24,000 nt of DNA from an uncultured delta proteobacterium (GTDB lineage Bacteria > Desulfobacterota > RBG-13-43-22), in NCBI GenBank assembly GCA_963790475.1, contig CAWBOS010000012.1, positions 864,633 through 888,632 on the forward strand, read 5' to 3'. Shown one piece after another: positions 1 through 6,119 of the stretch (position 1 is its first letter; every line of letters starts with the position of its first letter). The notes beneath the pieces were generated by a model, which saw nothing but the letters and a program-made list of their open reading frames with translations, ran no database searches and was not told the DNA's origin. The position numbers and the translations under genes are program-made.

Positions 1-1
1 G

Positions 2-124
2 CTCCTTCTGAAATACCACGACTCCATTGCTGACGCCGTGGCCGATTTAGGCAAACCGGAAGAAATTGGCGAGGTCTTCTACGGATTTCAAAAATATCTG
101 TATCAGCAACAGGCCGCTGCATGA
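2..124 (+). CDS. 3' end of a hypothetical ORF running in from the left edge (partial)
   Basis: Frame 2 is open from the window edge (LLLKYHDSIADAVADLGKPEEIGEVFYGFQKYLYQQQAAA*) to TGA 122-124. Only 40 codons are visible and no motif is recognised. Confidence 0.25.
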   Translation, partial: LLLKYHDSIADAVADLGKPEEIGEVFYGFQKYLYQQQAAA

Positions 125-134
125 CGAGCATTCA

Positions 135-308
135 ATGGAAATAAATGATAAGAAATTAGAAGCTTTAAAACAGGCCTTGATTGGCGTCAAAAATCAGAGG
201 GAGGAGGCTTTTATATTGCTTACCGCTGTTCCGGAACAACATCTTCCCGATATGGTGGAGACACTCCGGATCCTAAATGGGCTCAAGGAAATTAATAGTC
301 CTCGTTAA
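135..308 (+). CDS. small hypothetical protein (57 aa from ATG 135; the ORF track starts it at TTG 66)
   Basis: ORF-track entry 66..308. The first ATG is at 135 (MEINDKKLEALKQ...), 11 nt after the stop of the edge ORF. Predicted helical, no recognisable family, weak RBS. Confidence 0.35.
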   Translation: MEINDKKLEALKQALIGVKNQREEAFILLTAVPEQHLPDMVETLRILNGLKEINSPR

Positions 309-495
309 AATTAATACTTTCTTCCAGTAACTCGCAGGGTCCAGTTTTGGAAAAAATGCCAGAGGACAAATGATGATACCTTAACAGAGACTTGAATTTG
401 TTTGACTTTTTCTAAATTCTGATTAAAATCTCCTTATTCTTAAATGAGTTTTCTTGCTATCAACACCTAACAAAGGAGTTTTGATGGAAGAATAG

Positions 496-535
496 ACCCC
501 TATTCTCAACAGAGATATGGGGGTTTTTTATTTTT
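496..535 (+). terminator. candidate intrinsic terminator
   Basis: ACCCCTAT (496-503) pairs with ATGGGGGT (517-524), about 8 bp including one G-U, with a 13-nt loop. It is followed by TTTTTATTTTT (525-535). Confidence 0.45.
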
Positions 536-662
536 AAACTGGGCGGGATGTTACACAGTTAGAAATTTATCCAAGCAACGCCCTATTTTAACAAAATTTT
601 ATAATATTTTAATCGAATGTTTAATACAATTCGGGAAAACCAATCAATTTCATTTTGATAAT

Positions 663-1460
663 TTGAATAGGACCGGGGATATGGATGTAACTCTCCTGCA
701 CAAAATCCATTCTGAGGGAGCCAAACTTCTTCTCAACTGCCCGCCTCCTCGAAGATCAGCCAACGACTGGCAGCAATATATTCCAGAACCGTTTGAGACA
801 GCCTTGTCAGTTGAAGAGCATCGTTGGTTCTGGCGGCCAAAGCAAATCAAATTTGTTCTTCTGGCTGAATCCCACGTCTATACTGATGCTGATGATCTAA
901 AGTGCAAAATCGTTTATGACAAGTTGGATCCGTCTTTACAAAAATCGCCTCGACAATTTGTCCGACTTGTCTACTGCCTTGGGTACGGAAACGACCAGAT
1001 ACTCGATAGAGTTCCAGAGCAAAATAATTCAGGTACCAAAGAGTACTGGGAATTGTTAGGAAGATGTGCTGGCACGTGGAACAGATCTGACTATTCCATG
1101 CCATCGAAGATTCGAACCCTTGAGATTTTGAAAGAGAAAGGGATTTGGCTTGCAGATGCATCCATCCATGCATGTATGAACCCGCGACTAAATAAACCAT
1201 GGCGCAATATTGCGACTCGCTTCAAAAACACACTTTATAGAGAGCTGATCAATCTTTCTTGGGACTATGTACGTCCAACGATTGAACAGGCAAAGGAAAT
1301 CTGGTATGTCGGCAACAATTTGAAATCTGTCTTGCACGATAGCATTCTGAATCCCATAAAGTCCATCCCCCAACCATCAGGACGACGCAATCCAAGAACA
1401 CGAAGAGAATATGACGAAAAACTTCCGAAGCTTATAACTGCAATTAACAAGGTTTGCTGA
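663..1460 (+). CDS. hypothetical protein with uracil-DNA-glycosylase-superfamily-like motif order (function unproven)
   Basis: 265-aa ORF (TTG 663; first ATG 681). Motif order resembles the UDG fold: beta-strand + KFVLLAESHVY (compare VILGQDPYH/GINPG position), GIWLADASIHAC (compare GVLLLN), EIWYVGNNL, and C-terminal IPQPSGRRNP (compare HPSPLS/NPSGLS). Assigned by eye only. Confidence 0.55.
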   Translation: MNRTGDMDVTLLHKIHSEGAKLLLNCPPPRRSANDWQQYIPEPFETALSVEEHRWFWRPKQIKFVLLAESHVYTDADDLKCKIVYDKLDPSLQKSPRQFVRLVYCLGYGNDQILDRVPEQNNSGTKEYWELLGRCAGTWNRSDYSMPSKIRTLEILKEKGIWLADASIHACMNPRLNKPWRNIATRFKNTLYRELINLSWDYVRPTIEQAKEIWYVGNNLKSVLHDSILNPIKSIPQPSGRRNPRTRREYDEKLPKLITAINKVC

Positions 1461-1549
1461 TAAATACATGAAAAAAGACATGTGATGGTTACTTCTGTAT
1501 ATCAAGCAAAATGAGGAGATATGAAGTTCTTTAGAATAACTTGTTAGCT

Positions 1550-3102
1550 GTCACAAAGGGTAGTAGACCTAAACGTTGCAAAAGAAATCGCCAAATTTTG
1601 AATTATGCTGCCATTTTAAAAGTATCTAAGAATTTGAACAAACCATGTTTAACGACTTCATTACCACTCATAGTAAGAGTCAGGTTACCCTGGGGTGCTG
1701 TGAGTCTTCCTGCTCTTTGAATATAACGATGGCGGATCCATTTTAATTCATGAAAATTCCAAAGCGGGGTTCTTTTCTCGGAGGTTCCTCGATCTCTATC
1801 CCGGGTAGCCATTTGTAATTCCCGGTTCAGGTTATGGGCAAAAATAGCCGCTATCATGTAACATTGGTTTCCTGAAAGTTTCTTAACCGCAATATAATCC
1901 AGTTGGCTTTGGGATTTCAATTCCCCAAAGACACTCTCCTGACTTCCTCGACCATTGTGAAAGACCAGGATCTTTTTAGCAGAAATCCTCTTGTTGGTGA
2001 CGATGACCTTATACTCGTACCCATATTCTAAAGGGATAAAGAGATCCAATTGAATCGGGGCTTTTTGGATTTGCTTGCATCGTTGTCGTATAAAAACAAA
2101 ACGGAACTTTACCGGCCATTTTTTCGGTTTCCAGGGGGTTTCAAAATACGACCAGCGATTATTTAAATGACGCCAACGCACTCGATTTTCAATCATCGAT
2201 TTTAATTCGGCAAAGCGTTCAAAAGGAACGCTGAGGGTAAATTCGATGGATTCCTGGTCTAATAAGGCAACTATTTCCTGGCTGAAAAAAGCGCTATCCA
2301 TCCGGACCTCAAGCGTAATACCCGGCAGTTCTTGTTTGAGCCAGCTAAGGCATTGATGGATAAACTCACTGGCCCCATTCGAATCATGGACATTGCCGGG
2401 GCGATGATAGAAATCAAATACTTGTCCGGTTTGGGCAATGGTACAAAAAAGGGGATAGTAACTTCGGGCTCCCTTCTTTTTCTTGTTAAATCCAACCGCC
2501 GTGCCTTCGGCTTTTCGGGATGTAGATAAAACTGATCCATCAAAGTCAACGGTTAATCGACTCAGACCAGTTTTTTGGAGACGTTCGATAACCATCTGGC
2601 GGTTCAGTTCTCGGATTTTTTGGATGGCTTTTGGATCGGTACTTTTTAAGGCGCGACAAACCGTAGAGACATCCGGGAGGCGTTTCATTCCTAATAGTCT
2701 TTGAACCAAAGGATCATCTTTATAATAGTCCATATCCCGGAGTCTTCGAAAGCCCAAAAGAATATGGATAATCAGCAGCATCATAATTACATGATGTCCT
2801 ATAATTTCCGAGACGTGCAGGTGACGAAAACACTGGCGCAGTCGTTCTTTCAAACCCAGTTTCTGAAACAAAGGATGAAAAATTATCAAACCTGAAAAGG
2901 ATGTAAGTTTCTGATCTTCAAATCGGATCTGAGGAGTTTTATATGCTCGACTAAAAAAATGCCTTTTGCTATACTTCACCTTAGGTGGCCTCCAGTGACG
3001 GAAAATTGTGTGATGTGCTAATCTCACTTTAACCAATACTGGAGCCACCTTTCAAGCTCTTTATTACTTTTATTACACTTTTTTTATGCCACTATAGAGT
3101 AG
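1550..3102 (-). mobile_element. IS1380-family insertion sequence (ends not resolved)
   Basis: A single DDE transposase ORF fills the gap between two + strand orphan ORFs. The size (about 1.55 kb) fits IS1380-type elements. I could not identify convincing terminal inverted repeats or a target duplication, so the boundaries are approximate. Confidence 0.55.
1603..3048 (-). CDS. IS1380-family (IS4-superfamily) DDE transposase
   Basis: 481 aa with a GTG start. DDE candidates are TVDFDGSVL, VRMDSAFF and HNGRGSQESVFGELK (the Y/H-x2-R-x3-E-x6-K type signature typical of IS4/IS1380 transposases). Confidence 0.85.
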   Translation of the reverse strand: MAPVLVKVRLAHHTIFRHWRPPKVKYSKRHFFSRAYKTPQIRFEDQKLTSFSGLIIFHPLFQKLGLKERLRQCFRHLHVSEIIGHHVIMMLLIIHILLGFRRLRDMDYYKDDPLVQRLLGMKRLPDVSTVCRALKSTDPKAIQKIRELNRQMVIERLQKTGLSRLTVDFDGSVLSTSRKAEGTAVGFNKKKKGARSYYPLFCTIAQTGQVFDFYHRPGNVHDSNGASEFIHQCLSWLKQELPGITLEVRMDSAFFSQEIVALLDQESIEFTLSVPFERFAELKSMIENRVRWRHLNNRWSYFETPWKPKKWPVKFRFVFIRQRCKQIQKAPIQLDLFIPLEYGYEYKVIVTNKRISAKKILVFHNGRGSQESVFGELKSQSQLDYIAVKKLSGNQCYMIAAIFAHNLNRELQMATRDRDRGTSEKRTPLWNFHELKWIRHRYIQRAGRLTAPQGNLTLTMSGNEVVKHGLFKFLDTFKMAA

Positions 3103-3795
3103 ATGCAAGATAAATTCAAATTCCCATCGAGAGGTTTCTATTTTGTCGAAAGCAAAGTGAAGGAGGCCGACTATTTCCTAGATATGCTGGAGGGCAAAAA
3201 GGGTTCTCCAGATGAATTTTCATTTATCTTGAATGCATTTGCTTCTGCGGCACGTAGCATCACGTTTTCGCTTCAATCAGTCATGTCTCATTATCCAAGT
3301 TTCGAGGAATGGTATCAGCCAAGGCAACAACAACTGAAGGAAAACAAGCTAGCGAAATTCTTTGTTGATCTGCGAAATTTCACTCAGAAAGTTGGATGTG
3401 CTCCTATTATGCATACGGGAACGCTGAAAAATGCAAAAGCATTTCGCTACGCCTTATTTTTTCCATCAGAGCATTTAGAAAGTATTCCACCCGGTGATAT
3501 TGTCAGGCTTGCACAGGAATATTTTATAAGCATCCTAACAATTATCAAACAATGCTATGAGGACTACTCAGAGTATGTGGATCCAAGGATCGTATTCACT
3601 ATTGAGGGCCTATCAAAGTTAGGTTGGTCTATAGAGGATTTAGAAGAGTCATGCGGCCTCCCAAGAGGATGGACTGACATTAATGAAAATATTCCAAACA
3701 AATCACAAGAACGGCTGAGAGTATTAAAGAGTGAGTATCAAAAAGAAGAAGAGATGGAATACTATTTCAAGAAATACAACCTAAACAACTGCTAA
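3103..3795 (+). CDS. hypothetical protein (orphan, predicted mostly helical)
   Basis: 230-aa ORF with ATG 3103, lying directly after the IS. No motif recognised. Its stop overlaps the start of an attC-like palindrome. Confidence 0.7.
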   Translation: MQDKFKFPSRGFYFVESKVKEADYFLDMLEGKKGSPDEFSFILNAFASAARSITFSLQSVMSHYPSFEEWYQPRQQQLKENKLAKFFVDLRNFTQKVGCAPIMHTGTLKNAKAFRYALFFPSEHLESIPPGDIVRLAQEYFISILTIIKQCYEDYSEYVDPRIVFTIEGLSKLGWSIEDLEESCGLPRGWTDINENIPNKSQERLRVLKSEYQKEEEMEYYFKKYNLNNC

Positions 3796-3846
3796 CAAAG
3801 GCAATACAACCGATCGCTAACGCTTCGGCTGATCTTTTCGTTGGGC
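3790..3846 (+). repeat. attC-like recombination site (attC1)
   Basis: Layout is TGCTAAC-7nt-ATaCAACCGA-loop(11)-TCGGCTGAT-CTTTTC-GTTGGGC. The final core fits GTTRRRY. There is a single bulged base on the 5' arm only. It has the same architecture as 4558-4612 and shares CCGATCGCTA and CGGCTGAT. Confidence 0.55.
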
Positions 3847-3864
3847 ATAAAGGAGAGGATATCC

Positions 3865-4548
3865 ATGTCACGTCTTCTTTCATTCACGACAGGGCCAAAA
3901 GACTGGAAGGCATTGCTTGCCGATCCAGAGAAACATTGGAAATCAGGATATTCTGCCCGCACTTTAGCGTATTGTTGGGAAGCAGCAGACGGCTTCCCTT
4001 CTGAGGTCAGCCTACCTTTTACTCAGAGCACGGAGCCTCTATTAGAAAACCTCATTCCAATTCTCGCAGTGCCAGAGTTCAAAGTGCCATTGCCAGGCGG
4101 AGTACGCTCCTCACAGAACGACATCTTCGTATTAGCTCGATCCTCATCAGGGCCTGTTTGTATTATGGTTGAAGGCAAGGTCGATGAATCCTTCGGCCCC
4201 ACCCTTGGTGAATGGCGAAAGGAAGCATCACCAGGCAAAAAAAAGCGCCTTAGTTTTCTCCTTCGCTCGCTTGGTCTAGCCACTGTTCCGTCAGATTCAA
4301 TTCGTTATCAACTTCTTCATCGAGCTGCATCAGCCATAATTGCTGGAGAGCAATATCGTGCCGCAGCTGCTGTCCTTATCGTTCATTCATTCAGTCAGCT
4401 GCATACGGGTTGGTCAGATTATCAAGCATTTACACACATCTTTGGTGTTGAGGCAATGGTTGGAACTATCCAGCGACTTAGTATCTCTTCAACTGTGCCG
4501 CTCCTTGGGGTATGGGTCGTTGGTAATCCATTGTTCTTACAAAGCTGA
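3865..4548 (+). CDS. hypothetical PD-(D/E)XK-type nuclease-fold protein
   Basis: ATG 3865 is preceded by AAGGAGAGG; the track's TTG 3841 lies inside the attC core. The motif PEFKVPLPGG...QNDIFVLAR...VCIMVEGKVDESFG matches the D...E-x-K restriction-endonuclease-like core. The N-terminus (GPKDWKALLADPEKHWKSGYSARTLAYCWEAADGFP) looks like a recurrent uncharacterised bacterial family. Confidence 0.75.
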   Translation: MSRLLSFTTGPKDWKALLADPEKHWKSGYSARTLAYCWEAADGFPSEVSLPFTQSTEPLLENLIPILAVPEFKVPLPGGVRSSQNDIFVLARSSSGPVCIMVEGKVDESFGPTLGEWRKEASPGKKKRLSFLLRSLGLATVPSDSIRYQLLHRAASAIIAGEQYRAAAAVLIVHSFSQLHTGWSDYQAFTHIFGVEAMVGTIQRLSISSTVPLLGVWVVGNPLFLQS

Positions 4549-4557
4549 GGCATAATA

Positions 4558-4612
4558 GCCCAACCAGTCGATCCAGCCGATCGCTATACTCCGGCTGATT
4601 TTTTCGTTATGA
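4558..4612 (+). repeat. attC-like recombination site (attC2)
   Basis: Layout is GCCCAAC (fits RYYYAAC)-CAGTCG-ATCcAGCCG-loop(12)-CGGCTGAT-TTTTTC-GTTATGA. GCCCAAC is the exact reverse complement of GTTGGGC at 3840-3846. It starts 9 nt after the stop of the preceding ORF. Confidence 0.6.
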
Positions 4613-4675
4613 TCACTTTCAGCCAGTAATCATCCGTTTTTTGTTCATTCCCTGTTCAACATTAGTAGGTGTACT

Positions 4676-5116
4676 CTATTTGTTGATCAGTTTTCTCAAT
4701 GCGATGGTCCGGTTGATCCATCCCCGCAGATTAATAATTTTATATGGTTTTTCTTTAACCCGGTCGGAATAATAGGCGATCCGGTCAAAGAGATAATCCT
4801 GCCAGGTCCCGGGCCCGGATCTCAATTCATTGGCCAGCTTAAAACCAGGATTAATAGCAATATCAAAAATGATCATGTCCTTTGGATAGGGCAGCAGATC
4901 ACACCCGGCCAGCAGCCAGTAATTTTTGAAGTAGAGATCCGATGCATATTTCATGGCCTCTTCTTTGGACATCTTCGCCATTTTGGCCACTTCCACCGGA
5001 TGATAAACAATAGACATTCCCCAAATCGTAAGCTTGCCGGGATCCCTGGGATCGTCGGTTTTATAGCCTTCCTTTTCCAGTACAAATCCGAGGGCCTTGG
5101 GAAAATTATCATTCAT
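4676..5116 (-). CDS. GH108-family N-acetylmuramidase (lysozyme) with PG_binding_3-like C-terminal part
   Basis: The N-terminus FPKALGFVLEKEGYKTDDPRDPGKLTIWGMS matches the GH108 signature (F..vl..EGGY..dp.D.GG.T.yGI) including the catalytic Glu. The C-terminal FDIAINPG...GWINR resembles the peptidoglycan-binding module. Confidence 0.8.
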   Translation of the reverse strand: MNDNFPKALGFVLEKEGYKTDDPRDPGKLTIWGMSIVYHPVEVAKMAKMSKEEAMKYASDLYFKNYWLLAGCDLLPYPKDMIIFDIAINPGFKLANELRSGPGTWQDYLFDRIAYYSDRVKEKPYKIINLRGWINRTIALRKLINK

Positions 5117-5373
5117 TTTTTAACCTTTTCAACTGTCTTAGAGATAATTTGTTCGATCTGCGTAGTGGAAAGATCGTGGTTGTTAACATGAAAATATACC
5201 TGAGTTAAGAAGAAAGAAACCATGCCGATAAGGACTGAGATAAGAGTCCAGACGGCCATTCGGCTGCTTTTTAGGGCATTTTCCTTGATCTCTAAAAGGC
5301 ATGTTTCCGCCTGCTCAATCCGTTCTTTAAATCCTTGGTGTAAAGGACAAGTCACATCAGCTTCGCTCGGCAT
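5113..5373 (-). CDS. XhlA/holin-like small membrane protein
   Basis: 86 aa from ATG 5373 (RBS AAGGAA 6 nt upstream). N-terminal CPLHQGFKERIEQAE...LEIKEN helix, then one TM segment (MAVWTLISVLIGMVSFFLTQVYF). Its stop overlaps the lysozyme start (ATGA at 5113-5116). The track's longer 5508 start reads through a perfect hairpin. Confidence 0.6.
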   Translation of the reverse strand: MPSEADVTCPLHQGFKERIEQAETCLLEIKENALKSSRMAVWTLISVLIGMVSFFLTQVYFHVNNHDLSTTQIEQIISKTVEKVKK

Positions 5374-5400
5374 GGGCGTTTCCTTTCTTATCAGATTATC

Positions 5401-5447
5401 CTGGGGAGAACGAAAAGGCAAAAAACCACCCCCACCGTTCTCCCCAG
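5401..5447. repeat. perfect 12-bp inverted repeat with 23-nt spacer
   Basis: CTGGGGAGAACG (5401-5412) and CGTTCTCCCCAG (5436-5447) flank the spacer AAAAGGCAAAAAACCACCCCCAC. It sits 28 nt upstream of the holin-like start, near the junction with the truncated SBP gene. Confidence 0.8.
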
Positions 5448-5459
5448 GATTTAAAGTAT

Positions 5460-6119
5460 TTGTCCAAGACTGTTTCTCATTTTCCGGACACCACTCCCGC
5501 CGCATCATCCGCCAAAGGCAGCATGGATTTGATAAGGTTATTGAACATCGTGCCGGTGATGGCCAAAAAACTGCTGGCTGAGGCCGGTTACCCCAATGGG
5601 TTCACCTTCAAGGCTCAAATCCCAAATGCCAGTCAGGAACGTATGGATCTGGCCCAAATGGTAGTGGCTTATCTTGCTAAGATCGGGGTGACCCTGGTGT
5701 TGGACCCTTTGGATTATCCTTCCTGGCTCAGCCGGATGACCAAGAAGAACCACTCGGAAGGGATCTTCTTTGACAACGATCACGGGACTCCTTACGCCGG
5801 AATTCGCAAGAATTTCTCGACCGGCAACACCTGGAATCCCCACATGATGAGCGATCCCTATGTGGACAAGACCCACAGCGAGGCCGTTGAAAACCCGAAA
5901 CTGAGCGAAAAGCAAAGTCTGGCGGTGATGAAAAAACTAGCGGTTTATTGCCTGGATCAAGCCCCGGCCATCATACTTCCTACCCCCCATGTTTATACCG
6001 CCTGGTGGCCCTGGGTCAAAAATTATTACGGGGAGCAGCGTGTTGGTGCACAAAGAGCTAATCCCATCATGGCCCGTATATGGATAGATCAAGAATTGAA
6101 AAAGAAGATGGGATATTGA
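5460..6119 (+). pseudogene. 5'-truncated ABC transporter substrate-binding protein, family 5 (peptide/nickel type), C-terminal third only
   Basis: From about 5559 the translation (AKKLLAEAGYPNGFTF...IGVTLVLDPLDY...DPYVDK...LDQAPAIILPTPHVYTAWWPWVKNY) is the typical C-terminal part of SBP_bac_5 proteins. The about 300 N-terminal residues and signal peptide are absent. The first 33 codons of the ORF look like non-homologous run-in. Confidence 0.75.

What the first reader, a model, noticed from the sequence alone, without database searches (positions are those of the whole stretch)
3790..4612. Integron-type gene-cassette array: two attC-like sites whose cores match across a cassette
Seen: the two co-oriented orphan ORFs (3103-3795, 3865-4548) are each followed at or within 9 nt of their stop by a 55-57 nt imperfect palindrome with one shared layout. 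The layout starts with a 7-nt core ending in AAC (TGCTAAC 3790-3796; GCCCAAC 4558-4564) and a 6-7 nt spacer. Then comes a stem with one bulged base on the 5' arm only (ATaCAACCGA/TCGGCTGAT; ATCcAGCCG/CGGCTGAT) and an 11-12 nt loop. It ends with a 6-nt T-rich spacer (CTTTTC/TTTTTC) and then GTTGGGC (3840-3846) or GTTATGA (4606-4612). GCCCAAC fits RYYYAAC and GTTGGGC fits GTTRRRY. They are perfect reverse complements although they sit at opposite ends of the 3841-4606 unit. Established knowledge: integron attC sites are R''(RYYYAAC)-L''...L'-R'(GTTRRRY). Crossover occurs between G and TT of R', so a cassette's own R'' pairs with the first six bases of that same cassette. Asymmetric extrahelical bases define the recombinogenic strand. 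The ORF nearly fills the unit (24-nt leader with an AAGGAG RBS, 9-nt tail), as in promoterless cassettes. Inference: this is part of a sedentary chromosomal integron array, or a CALIN if no integrase exists. An intI would be expected to the left of the window on the opposite strand. The sites are at the short end of the known attC length range.
Basis: partly seen in the sequence, partly recalled or inferred. Interest (0 to 1): 0.8.

Follow-up and report, generated by a model that had tools for sequence, protein, structure and literature searches.

The report
Integron gene cassettes with attC sites
The two short palindromes are real integron recombination sites (attC) that bound two mobile gene cassettes in a Thermodesulfobacteriota chromosome; this is an ordinary, well-understood kind of element, although this attC family has not been described before.

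Summary

- **The sites.** Window 3790-3846 and 4558-4612 belong to one highly conserved ~56-nt element family. Its layout is RYYY-AAC, a 5/6-nt spacer, AAT-(A/C bulge)-CAGCCG, a variable loop or stem, CGGCTG-ATT, TTTTC, then GTT-RRRY.
- **Distribution.** An exact-pattern scan found the family in at least 118 genome stretches, mostly Syntrophales/Smithella MAGs. The copies form co-oriented arrays with a median spacing of 723 bp.
- **Integrase.** Six related loci carry a full-length integron integrase (TIGR02249, 426-466 bits for the four scored). Five of them sit upstream of the array on the opposite strand.
- **Decisive test.** The 4 nt after GTT of one site are perfectly complementary to the 4 nt before AAC of the next site in 31 of 59 pairs. 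Within a single site the figure is 5 of 152. The signal stops at exactly 4 nt. This is the footprint of cassette recombination at G|TT.
- **Mobility.** Homologues of both window ORFs occur in other arrays with other neighbours, and the homology breaks at the attC.
- **Window context.** The window holds no intI, so this is a CALIN-type cluster. An IS1380-family element (1567-3099) sits in the 23-nt leader of cassette 1.
- **Verdict.** New member of a known kind. Cargo function is unknown.

The parts
3790..3846 (+). attC site 1 (57 nt). R'' TGCTAAC 3790-3796; spacer 3797-3802; L'' AAT 3803-3805, bulged A 3806, CAACCG 3807-3812; loop 3813-3825; L' CGGCTG 3826-3831 plus ATC 3832-3834; spacer TTTTC 3835-3839; R' GTTGGGC 3840-3846. 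Two L-box mismatches relative to the family consensus.
   Evidence: Sequence; covariance model R1 68.9 bits, E 4.5e-16; nhmmer E 1.4e-15; family alignment and pair counts.
4558..4612 (+). attC site 2 (55 nt). R'' GCCCAAC 4558-4564; spacer CAGTC 4565-4569; L'' GAT 4570-4572, bulged C 4573, CAGCCG 4574-4579; loop 4580-4591; L' CGGCTG 4592-4597 plus ATT 4598-4600; spacer TTTTC 4601-4605; R' GTTATGA 4606-4612.
   Evidence: Sequence; covariance model R1 66.4 bits, E 2.1e-15; DNA fold gives the 6-bp CAGCCG/CGGCTG stem.
3841..4606 (+). Cassette 2, a complete 766-bp unit. It runs from TT of R' GTTGGGC to G of R' GTTATGA. Its first bases TTGGGC are the complement of its own R'' GCCCAA.
   Evidence: 4/4 cross-cassette complementarity. 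Nucleotide homology to DUF6946 cassettes in L134-L140 starts at window 3839 and ends at 4548-4576, with different neighbours there.
3865..4548 (+). Cassette 2 cargo: a 227-aa DUF6946 protein with RBS AAGGAG at 3850-3855. Function unknown.
   Evidence: Pfam PF22187 E 1.3e-83; 1754 homologues; AF2 pLDDT 80.5 with no PDB fold match at E<0.1; no PADLOC or PHROG hit.
1544..3840 (+). Cassette 1, interrupted by an IS; 761 bp without the insertion. It has a 23-nt leader TTAGCTGTCACAAAGGGTAGTAG (1544-1566), then ORF1, then attC1 up to G3840.
   Evidence: The leader matches the 23-nt leader of the ORF1-homologue cassette in L131 (TTAGCATTCACAAAAGATAGTTG). That cassette begins G|TTAGCA and ends with R'' TGCTAAC. 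The IS ends were mapped with an independent copy.
1543..1549 (+). R'-type core GTTAGCT, the inferred 5' crossover point of cassette 1. It is complementary to cassette 1's own R'' TGCTAAC at 3 of 4 variable positions.
   Evidence: Sequence. This is an inference from the leader homology with L131.
1442..1549 (+). Possible third attC of a divergent or degenerate type (AAC 1446-1448 ... GTT 1543-1545), lying behind ORF 663-1460. Uncertain.
   Evidence: A 14-nt inverted repeat 1445-1458/1533-1546 at 79%. However, the fold is weak (z -0.7 and -1.5) and the family model gives no hit.
1567..3099 (-). IS1380-family insertion sequence (1533 bp; transposase 1603-3048). It is inserted in the leader of cassette 1 immediately before the ATG and is flanked by TAG/TAG (1564-1566 and 3100-3102).
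   Evidence: NCBIfam NF033539, 227 bits against a cutoff of 180; Pfam DDE_Tnp_1_4. An independent copy, L141, is 91.5% identical over window 1567-3100 and has different flanks.
3103..3795 (+). Cassette 1 cargo: a 230-aa Ea47-like protein (PF26900 in the precomputed annotation). Function unknown.
   Evidence: 54 homologues; AF2 pLDDT 88.9 with no significant PDB fold match. The homologue in L131-L133 (87% identity) sits in another array with other neighbours.
4613..4642 (+). Sequence just after attC2, containing the motif CTTTCAGCCAGTAATC (4617-4633). No fourth family attC follows, so the family array ends here.
   Evidence: The same motif follows an attC R' in L081, L006 and L051 and also occurs at window 318-334. 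Homology with L081 ends at 4642.

Best explanation
The two palindromes are attC recombination sites of integron gene cassettes. They belong to a very homogeneous ~56-nt attC family that circulates mainly in Syntrophales/Smithella-type Thermodesulfobacteriota.

**Mechanism (inferred from the known integron pathway).** When single-stranded, the bottom strand of each site folds into a hairpin with four parts:
- an R box (AAC/GTT plus four variable pairs);
- a largely unpaired central spacer;
- a 9-bp L box carrying one extrahelical base (T or G on the bottom strand);
- a variable terminal stem-loop.

An integron integrase (IntI) binds this hairpin and cuts between G and TT of R'. A unit such as window 3841-4606 can therefore be excised as a 766-nt circle and reinserted at an attI or attC site.

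**What the window holds.**
- Cassette 2 is complete and carries a DUF6946 gene.
- Cassette 1 carries an Ea47-like gene. Its 23-nt leader has been split by an IS1380-family insertion at 1567-3099.
- There is no intI in the window, so locally this is a CALIN-type cluster. It would depend on an integrase encoded elsewhere in the genome or supplied in trans.

**Shown:** family membership, secondary structure, array organisation, the crossover footprint, integrase linkage in relatives, and independent occurrence of both cassettes elsewhere.

**Inferred:** bottom-strand recombination, present-day activity, and the existence of an intI in this genome.
For: Flanks show conserved AAC (140/144) and GTT (127/144) at fixed distances, with variable bases outside them.
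2. **Arrays.** 39 loci carry more than one site and only one has mixed strands. Spacing has a median of 723 bp and a 5-95% range of 330-3330 bp.
3. **Crossover footprint.** The variable part of R' at site i pairs with the variable part of R'' at site i+1 perfectly in 31/59 pairs (mean 2.93 of 4). Within one site the figure is 5/152 (mean 1.68), and random pairing gives 2.7%. The permutation p is <5e-5. Complementarity is 0.82, 0.71, 0.73 and 0.75 at positions +1 to +4, then falls to background (0.22-0.35). The window pair scores 4/4.
4. **Structure.** 82.7% of cells are paired, against 19-43% when partners are slid. Five of the 9 L-box pairs and both terminal-stem pairs show compensatory changes. 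In variants the terminal stem lengthens. The consensus bottom strand folds at -11.8 kcal/mol, z -3.7.
5. **Integrase.** Full-length IntI homologues were found in L004, L033, L037, L088, L090 and L069. The four that were scored reach TIGR02249 at 426-466 bits against a cutoff of 265. Five of the six lie upstream on the opposite strand.
6. **Cassette features.** In 59/69 units the longest ORF is co-oriented with the attC. Median ORF coverage is 0.825 and the median leader is 28 nt.
7. **Mobility.** Homologues of ORF1 and ORF2 sit in other arrays with other neighbours, and homology to the window breaks at 3839 and at 3798/4576. A GTTAGGG predicted from complementarity was found at the expected cassette start in L004.
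8. **Clustered, not dispersed.** Megabase contigs show one or two loci each. For example, one 1.3-Mb contig has a complete integron at 800 kb (L004) and a 2-attC cluster at 1,024 kb (L039).
Against: - No intI in the 24-kb window: tblastn with two family IntIs gives nothing below E=3. The source genome outside the window could not be read.
- The window sites, folded alone, are not more stable than shuffles.
- Site 1 has two L-box mismatches.
- IntegronFinder's generic attC model could not be run.
- No experiment shows recombination.
- The near-invariant T-rich 3' spacer is unusual for an attC central spacer and is unexplained.
- The pattern scan forced identity in the core, so the seed sequences are biased. 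The covariation evidence rests on the roughly 80 nhmmer-only hits.
Confidence: 0.93

Rival explanations
1. The elements are a REP-like or intrinsic-terminator palindrome family placed behind genes, with no role in recombination.
For: - A GC-rich 6-bp stem is followed by ATTTTTTCG.
- The T-run is almost invariant in the family: T in 123-141 of 144 sequences at each of the five positions.
- The sites lie at or just after stop codons.
Against:
- The RNA hairpins are weak (-7 to -10 kcal/mol, z +0.8 to -1.2).
- A terminator does not explain conserved AAC/GTT at fixed distance, complementarity between one site's R' and the next site's R'', linkage to integron integrases, or clustering into one or two loci per megabase contig.
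Confidence: 0.03
2. The sites are true attCs, but the window shows the distal part of a complete sedentary chromosomal integron. On this view the intI/attI lie beyond the left edge of the window, rather than the cluster being a free-standing CALIN.
For: - Cassettes are oriented so that intI would lie to the left.
- An R'-type core (1543-1549) and a cassette-like unit homologous to a cassette start in L057 (347-533) suggest the array continues leftwards.
- Related genomes have complete integrons.
Against: - No family attC and no intI lie in window 1-3789.
- The left region holds no convincing attC.
- Related genomes also have 2-attC satellite clusters far from the integrase (L039, 224 kb from L004).
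- CALINs outnumber complete integrons in bacteria (PMC9668308).
Confidence: 0.25
3. The cassette cluster belongs to a decayed prophage. On this view, attC-bearing cassettes of this family travel inside temperate phage genomes, and the window shows such a remnant.
For: - An endolysin-like gene (phrog_315, E 3e-16) and an overlapping upstream gene for a membrane-spanning, holin-like protein lie about 60 nt to the right of attC2, on the opposite strand.
- Eight IMG/VR contigs carry family sites. In three of them, terminase or portal genes lie within a few kb: L122, L128 and L129.
- The region 1-6000 has lower G+C (0.39-0.52) than the rest of the window.
Against: - Only two lysis-type genes and no other phage gene lie in the window.
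- There is no match in 50,697 deposited phage genomes.
- IMG/VR contigs can include host flanks.
- Most family loci are chromosomal arrays with an integron integrase.
Confidence: 0.12

Closest known systems
attC sites of sedentary chromosomal integrons (for example Vibrio cholerae repeats, VCRs, in the superintegron)
   Same: - Highly homogeneous attC sequences within a host lineage.
- Co-oriented arrays of mostly unknown-function cassettes.
- ORFs fill the units.
- A 7-bp R box with crossover at G|TT, so that a cassette's first six bases pair with its own R''.
   Different: - The sites are 55-57 nt, against roughly 120-130 nt for VCRs.
- The host is an anaerobic Thermodesulfobacteriota rather than a gammaproteobacterium.
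- Arrays in related loci mix this family with other attC types.
- The window copy has no integrase nearby.
Short attC of class 1 mobile integron cassettes (attC of aadA7/aadA1, 60 nt; sequence recalled from memory, not tested here)
   Same: - Nearly the same length and layout: 7-nt R'', 5-nt spacer, L'' with a bulged base, short terminal loop, L', 5-6-nt spacer, R'.
- A similar L-box core (xAGCCG...CGGCTx).
- The extrahelical base lies on the R''-L'' arm.
   Different: - Only one clearly conserved extrahelical position (A/C on the top strand, so T/G on the bottom strand) instead of two.
- The 3' spacer is a conserved T-run.
- There is no resistance-gene cargo.
- It is not found in 72,556 plasmids.
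CALIN (cluster of attC sites lacking an integron integrase; IntegronFinder category)
   Same: - At least two co-oriented attC sites 767 bp apart.
- No intI within the 3.8 kb to the left or the 19 kb to the right.
- The same situation as L039 in a related genome.
   Different: Whether the genome has an intI elsewhere is unknown. An IS1380-family element interrupts the cluster.
Integrons of Desulfobacterota and other environmental phyla reported from genome and MAG surveys (PMC9668308, PMC8618304)
   Same: - Same phylum-level host range.
- Same architecture.
- Strong attC homology within a taxonomic source.
   Different: No paper in the searched library combines integron, attC and Smithella. As far as the search shows, this particular attC family and its consensus are not described.

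Membership tests
integron attC site | Terminal inverted core sites R'' (RYYYAAC) and R' (GTTRRRY) with invariant AAC/GTT | tested here: met
   Both window sites have AAC and GTT at the family distances. In the family, AAC is present in 140/144 and GTT in 127/144 sequences. The R/Y positions are only loosely kept: TGCTAAC and GTTATGA deviate.
integron attC site | Internal imperfect inverted repeat L''/L' with extrahelical base(s) on the R''-L'' arm and an unpaired central spacer | tested here: met
   The 9-bp L box is 89.9% paired, with 5 pairs showing compensatory changes. A bulged A/C lies at a fixed column. The 5' spacer varies in sequence and length (5 or 6 nt). Both window sites have the bulge (A3806, C4573).
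integron attC site | Variable terminal structure between the L arms | tested here: met
   The consensus has a 2-bp GC/GC stem with a 3-nt loop. Variants carry 5-7-bp stems at the same place. Both terminal-stem pairs show compensatory changes.
integron attC site | Stable single-strand hairpin | tested here: inconclusive
   The consensus bottom strand folds at -11.8 kcal/mol, z -3.7. The two window sites alone give -5 to -6.6 kcal/mol, z -0.06 to -1.4.
integron attC site | Crossover at G|TT of R', so that the bases after GTT pair with the R'' of the next site and not of the same site | tested here: met
   31/59 perfect matches across cassettes against 5/152 within sites, p<5e-5. The signal is confined to 4 nt. 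The window pair scores 4/4. Homology to other arrays starts at window 3839.
integron attC site | Co-oriented tandem arrays at cassette spacing, with ORFs in the same direction | tested here: met
   38 of 39 multi-site loci are single-stranded. Median spacing is 723 bp. In 59/69 units the longest ORF is co-oriented. In the window, two sites lie 767 bp apart and both ORFs are co-oriented.
integron attC site | Score above threshold with the IntegronFinder/HattCI generic attC model | not testable with these tools
   That model is not in Rfam, and the window has no Rfam hit. Only a family-specific model could be built.
integron attC site | Recombined by an integron integrase, with the bottom strand preferred | not testable with these tools
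   This needs a suicide-conjugation or excision assay.
complete integron (intI + attI + cassettes) | Integron integrase gene adjacent to the array | tested here: not met
   No IntI-like sequence in the window at E<=10. The feature is met in related loci L004, L033, L037, L088 and L090 (opposite strand, upstream) and in L069 (same strand). The four that were scored reach TIGR02249 at 426-466 bits (L033 and L037 were not scored).
CALIN | At least 2 attC sites within 4 kb of each other and no integron integrase nearby | tested here: met
   The two sites are 767 bp apart. There is no intI in window 1-24000. 'Nearby' beyond the left edge of the window (more than 3.8 kb away) is untested.
intrinsic terminator | G+C-rich stem with a 3-8-nt loop directly followed by a U-tract, with a stable RNA hairpin | tested here: not met
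   Not called by the scan. The loop is 12 nt. The RNA fold z is +0.8 to -1.2.
REP/BIME-type dispersed palindromes | Many copies dispersed through intergenic regions of one genome, in both orientations | tested here: not met
   Contigs of 1-4 Mb show one or two 8-kb stretches with sites, and the sites are co-oriented.

The most novel reading that the evidence does not exclude
This single, almost invariant 56-nt attC family may mark one cassette pool that is exchanged well beyond Syntrophales. It turns up in genomes labelled Nitrospirota, Lentisphaerota, Spirochaetota and even Methanobacterium, and inside phage genomes (sites next to terminase and portal genes in IMG/VR contigs, and an endolysin gene next to the window's array). 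On this reading, temperate phages would act as vehicles for integron cassettes. The conserved T-run after the GC stem would additionally let each attC act as a transcriptional insulator.
Probability: 0.12. Interest if true: 0.6.

Novelty: new member of a known kind. Interest (0 to 1): 0.3.

Why it matters
This confirms that a reader working from raw sequence alone can recognise integron cassettes. It also supplies a clean, testable attC consensus for an uncultured, environmentally important group: syntrophic Smithella and Syntrophus relatives from digesters, sediments and peat.

The consensus could be used to:
- design cassette-PCR primers or covariance models that recover the cassette metagenome of these anaerobes;
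- assign orphan cassettes to a host lineage;
- test how far one attC type is shared between phyla and phages.

Biologically the locus itself is ordinary: two cassettes of unknown function, one of them hit by an IS.

Tried and rejected
- **Rfam.** The gathering-threshold search of the window found nothing. Three loci carrying the post-attC motif also gave nothing, which drops the idea that the motif is the end of a group II (attC-targeting) intron.
- **Folding the window sites alone.** Not significant, so the case rests on comparative data.
- **Cargo function.** There were no PADLOC, NCBIfam or PHROG hits for ORF1 or ORF2. PDB sequence search gave nothing. Foldseek against PDB with good AF2 models gave no match at E<0.1; the weak restriction-endonuclease-like and HEPN-like rows are not significant.
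- **Deposited plasmids and phages.** No match to the attC consensus or to the IS region.
- **IS boundaries.** The inverted repeat 1617-1638/3051-3072 was first taken as the IS ends. It was rejected after an independent IS copy (L141) aligned to 1567-3100.
- **Further family sites in the window.** None were found with filters off.
- **A third attC at 1442-1549.** Its structure is unconvincing, so it is kept only as 'possible'.
- **Finding the rest of the cassettes by exact 7-mers.** GTTAGCA and TCATAAC searches were uninformative.
- **The source contig (1,597,875 bp).** The look-up tools would not return it, so the genome-wide intI question stays open.
- **Family model on other arrays.** The family HMM finds no sites in the arrays that carry the ORF1 and ORF2 homologues. 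Those arrays use other attC types, seen by eye.
Full report
**1. Observation**

- ORF1 (3103-3795) ends inside TGCTAAC (3790-3796).
- ORF2 (3865-4548) is preceded by AAGGAG (3850-3855) and followed after 9 nt by GCCCAAC (4558-4564).
- Both ORFs are followed by a 55-57-nt imperfect palindrome that ends in GTTGGGC (3840-3846) or GTTATGA (4606-4612).
- The two elements share CCGATCGCTA, CGGCTGAT and TTTTCGTT.

The combined pattern occurs twice in the window against 0.00 expected. Folding each site alone as DNA is unimpressive (-5 to -6.6 kcal/mol, z -0.06 to -1.4). Rfam has nothing here. The question therefore had to be settled by comparison with other genomes.

**2. A large family**

The labels are overwhelmingly Smithella, Syntrophus, Syntrophaceae, Smithellaceae, Syntrophales or 'Deltaproteobacteria' MAGs. 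A minority are labelled Nitrospirota, Dissulfurispiraceae, Lentisphaerota, Spirochaetes, Bacteroidota, Patescibacteria or Methanobacterium, and many of these are on short contigs. A looser scan of IMG/VR gave 11 stretches, 8 of them true family members.

Printing the flanks shows one layout throughout:

(RYYY)AAC - 5 or 6 variable nt - AAT - A/C - CAGCCG - ATCGCTA(A)CGCTC - CGGCTG - ATT - TTTTC - GTT(RRRY)

AAC is present in 140/144 sequences and GTT in 127/144. The four bases outside them are variable.

**3. Structure**

I aligned 75 distinct copies, weighted towards the roughly 80 nhmmer hits that do not match the search pattern. On this alignment the proposed pairing performs as follows.
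- 82.7% of cells are paired, against 19-43% when partners are slid by 1-3 columns.
- The 9-bp L box is 89.9% paired.
- Five L-box pairs show double (compensatory) changes, for example CAG/CTG to CAC/GTG, CCG/CGG to CGG/CCG, and AAT...ATT to GCT...AGC.
- One base between AAT and CAG is always unpaired.
- The 'loop' contains a 2-bp GC/GC stem that grows to 5-7 bp in variants.

In attC terms, that is an R box, a central spacer, an L box with an extrahelical base on the R''-L'' arm, and a variable terminal structure. The consensus bottom strand folds at -11.8 kcal/mol (z -3.7). A covariance model built from this alignment scores the two window sites at 68.9 and 66.4 bits, and nothing else in the window scores above 9.5 bits.

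**4. Arrays and cassettes**

A profile search found 230 hits in the fetched loci.
- 39 loci have more than one site, and only one of them has mixed strands.
- Spacing has a median of 723 bp and a 5-95% range of 330-3330 bp.
- In 59 of 69 inter-site units the longest ORF is co-oriented with the sites.
- That ORF covers a median 82.5% of the unit, with a median 28-nt leader, and ends about 21 nt before the L box.

**5. The decisive test**

If these are integron cassettes, recombination between G and TT of R' means the bases after GTT belong to the next cassette. They should then pair with that cassette's own R'', one unit downstream, and not with the R'' of the same site.

| Pairing | Perfect 4/4 | Mean of 4 |
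|---|---|---|
| Across cassettes | 31/59 | 2.93 |
| Within one site | 5/152 | 1.68 |
| Random | 2.7% | 1.54 |

No permutation out of 20,000 reached the observed value. By position, complementarity is 0.82, 0.71, 0.73 and 0.75 for the four bases after GTT, then drops to 0.22-0.35. The R box is therefore exactly 7 bp. The window pair (GTTGGGC at 3840, GCCCAAC at 4558) scores 4/4, while each window site scores 1/4 internally. The rule also predicted a GTTAGGG in L004, and it was found at the start of the expected cassette, behind an attC of another type.

**6. Integrase**

A tblastn search with IntI1 (sequence recalled from memory and used only as a probe) found six full-length homologues at 46-49% identity. 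Four were checked against NCBIfam and score 426-466 bits on TIGR02249 'integron integrase', whose cutoff is 265. In L004, L033, L037, L088 and L090 the gene lies upstream of the array on the opposite strand, which is the canonical layout. In L069 it is on the same strand. L004 is a complete integron, with intI followed by at least eight co-oriented small ORFs and six family attCs.

**7. Mobility of the two window cassettes**

- **ORF2.** It is a DUF6946 protein with 1754 homologues. An 81%-identical copy sits in arrays L135-L140, between a DUF2971 gene and a 399-aa ORF. An 88%-identical copy sits in L134 with yet other neighbours. Nucleotide homology to the window starts at 3839, one base before the G of R', and ends at 4548-4576 in the R''/spacer region.
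- **ORF1.** It is Ea47-like with 54 homologues. An 87%-identical copy sits in L131-L133 among other co-oriented small ORFs. There the cassette starts G|TTAGCA and ends with R'' TGCTAAC, a perfect match, and is flanked by attCs of other types.

The two window genes are therefore independent cassettes, not an operon.

**8. Window context**

- **Host.** Cluster-mates at 90% identity or more are named Thermodesulfobacteriota bacterium. The right two-thirds of the window encodes ordinary metabolism: CoA-transferase, aldolase, a sensor kinase, acyl-CoA synthetase and a 2-oxoacid dehydrogenase complex.
- **No intI** is present.
- **The insertion sequence.** The ORF at 1603-3048 (-) is an IS1380-family transposase (NF033539, 227 bits). 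An independent copy of the IS (L141, 91.5% identity) aligns to window 1567-3100 with unrelated flanks. The element is therefore 1567-3099, flanked by TAG/TAG.
- **Cassette 1 restored.** Removing the IS joins GTTAGCTGTCACAAAGGGTAGTAG to ATG 3103. This is a 23-nt leader of the same length as, and 18/24 identical (counting the leading G of R') to, the leader in L131. Cassette 1 therefore begins at the R'-type core GTTAGCT (1543-1549). That core matches its own R'' TGCTAAC at 3 of 4 variable positions. The IS landed immediately upstream of the start codon.
- **Upstream of 1543.** The region 1442-1549 has AAC...GTT and a 14-nt terminal inverted repeat but folds poorly. It may be a degenerate attC of another type.

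A two-site cluster without an integrase is also seen in a related genome. L039 lies 224 kb from the complete integron L004 on the same 1.3-Mb contig. That is the CALIN situation described as common in bacteria (PMC9668308).

**9. Rivals**

- **Terminator or REP reading.** The element has a GC stem followed by a conserved T-run. However, the scan does not call it and the RNA hairpins are weak. Neither reading accounts for sections 5 and 6 or for the clustering.
- **Complete integron or satellite CALIN.** This cannot be decided because the source contig outside the window was not retrievable.
- **Prophage link.** It is possible but thin. An endolysin-like gene (phrog_315, E 3e-16) and a membrane-protein gene lie just right of attC2. 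Three IMG/VR contigs carry family sites within a few kb of terminase or portal genes. Deposited phages and plasmids have no match.

**10. Comparison with what is known, and novelty**

The element works like, and passes every computationally testable criterion for, integron attC sites and gene cassettes. The untested criteria are the IntegronFinder generic model and actual recombination. It resembles sedentary chromosomal integrons in attC homogeneity (PMC8618304), and short class 1 attCs such as that of aadA7 in length and layout.

Integrons are already known in Desulfobacterota (PMC9668308). No paper in the library links integron, attC and Smithella. I therefore rate this a new member of a known kind. 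It is of modest interest, with a useful, well-defined attC consensus as the main product. Cargo functions remain unknown.

Noticed in passing
window 1567-3099 (-); independent copy L141 1-1601: An IS1380-family element is inserted in the 23-nt leader of cassette 1, directly upstream of the ORF1 start codon, and is flanked by TAG/TAG. The 90%-identity cluster of its transposase has many members on 1.6-1.9-kb contigs, so it looks like a multi-copy, active IS. It could either silence ORF1 or drive it from an outward promoter.
   Followed up: partly
window 4617-4633 and 318-334; L081, L006 and L051 just after an attC R': A motif CTTTC(A/T)NCCAGTAA(T/C)C lies 5-15 nt after a GTT core in four places where the family array seems to end. 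It occurs a second time in the window, after GTTAAAA (303). There is no Rfam hit and no shared downstream gene. Its meaning is unknown; it could be an array-end remnant or the terminus of another element.
   Followed up: partly
window 347-533; L057 (reverse strand) directly after its attC R' GTTAGAA: This stretch is 69% identical to the first ~190 nt of a cassette in L057. It has a promoter-like TTGACT-17-TAAAAT, a conserved AAGGAG followed by ATGGAAGAATA(G/A) (a 3-codon mini-ORF), and then a hairpin with a T-run. It looks like a cassette-borne promoter with a leader or attenuator, or a small RNA. No Rfam family matches.
   Followed up: partly
window 4676-5116 (-) and 5113-5508 (-): Two overlapping genes on the opposite strand, about 60 nt from attC2. 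One is a GH108/endolysin-like protein (Pfam PF05838; phrog_315, E 3e-16). The other is a 131-aa protein with one hydrophobic helix, which is holin-like. Together they form a phage lysis module with no other phage genes around it.
   Followed up: partly
L122, L124, L127, L128, L129 (IMG/VR contigs): Family attC sites, up to 4 in a row, occur in contigs classed as viral. They lie within a few kb of a terminase large subunit (L122, L128), a portal protein (L129, E 2.5e-52), a DnaB helicase and a methyltransferase (L124). In L122 a phage-type tyrosine integrase that is not TIGR02249 sits where intI would be. Integron cassettes inside phage genomes would be unusual.
   Followed up: partly
L008 (Methanobacterium MAG, 2.5-kb contig), L019 (Patescibacteria), L020 (Parachlamydia), L037 (Oscillospiraceae, with intI): Near-identical family attCs, and in L037 a family integrase, occur on short contigs binned into unrelated phyla and one archaeon. 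This could be mis-binning or real cross-phylum or cross-domain cassette sharing. The two cannot be distinguished here.
   Followed up: no
L069 987-2003 (+) relative to attC at 3628 (+): One family integron has its integrase on the same strand as the cassettes (the 'inverted integrase' layout), unlike the five others.
   Followed up: no
L135-L140, for example L137 5500-5560: In these arrays the DUF6946 cassette keeps R'' GCCCAAC, but the rest of its attC is missing. A 399-aa ORF starts inside the former site (ATGGCCCAAC...). This looks like a fused cassette created by attC loss.
   Followed up: no
window 5460-6119 (+): A 219-aa ORF matches only the middle part of a family-5 solute-binding protein (SBP_bac_5, profile positions 266-339 of 368). 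It is probably a gene fragment at the boundary between the low-G+C mobile region and the chromosomal genes.
   Followed up: no
L001 (Logan ERR12035932, 1600 nt) = window 3072-4671: A metagenome contig is 100% identical to the two-cassette block and stops about 27 nt inside the IS on the left and about 59 nt past attC2 on the right. In that sample, the same block is therefore bordered by repeated or variable sequence on both sides.
   Followed up: partly
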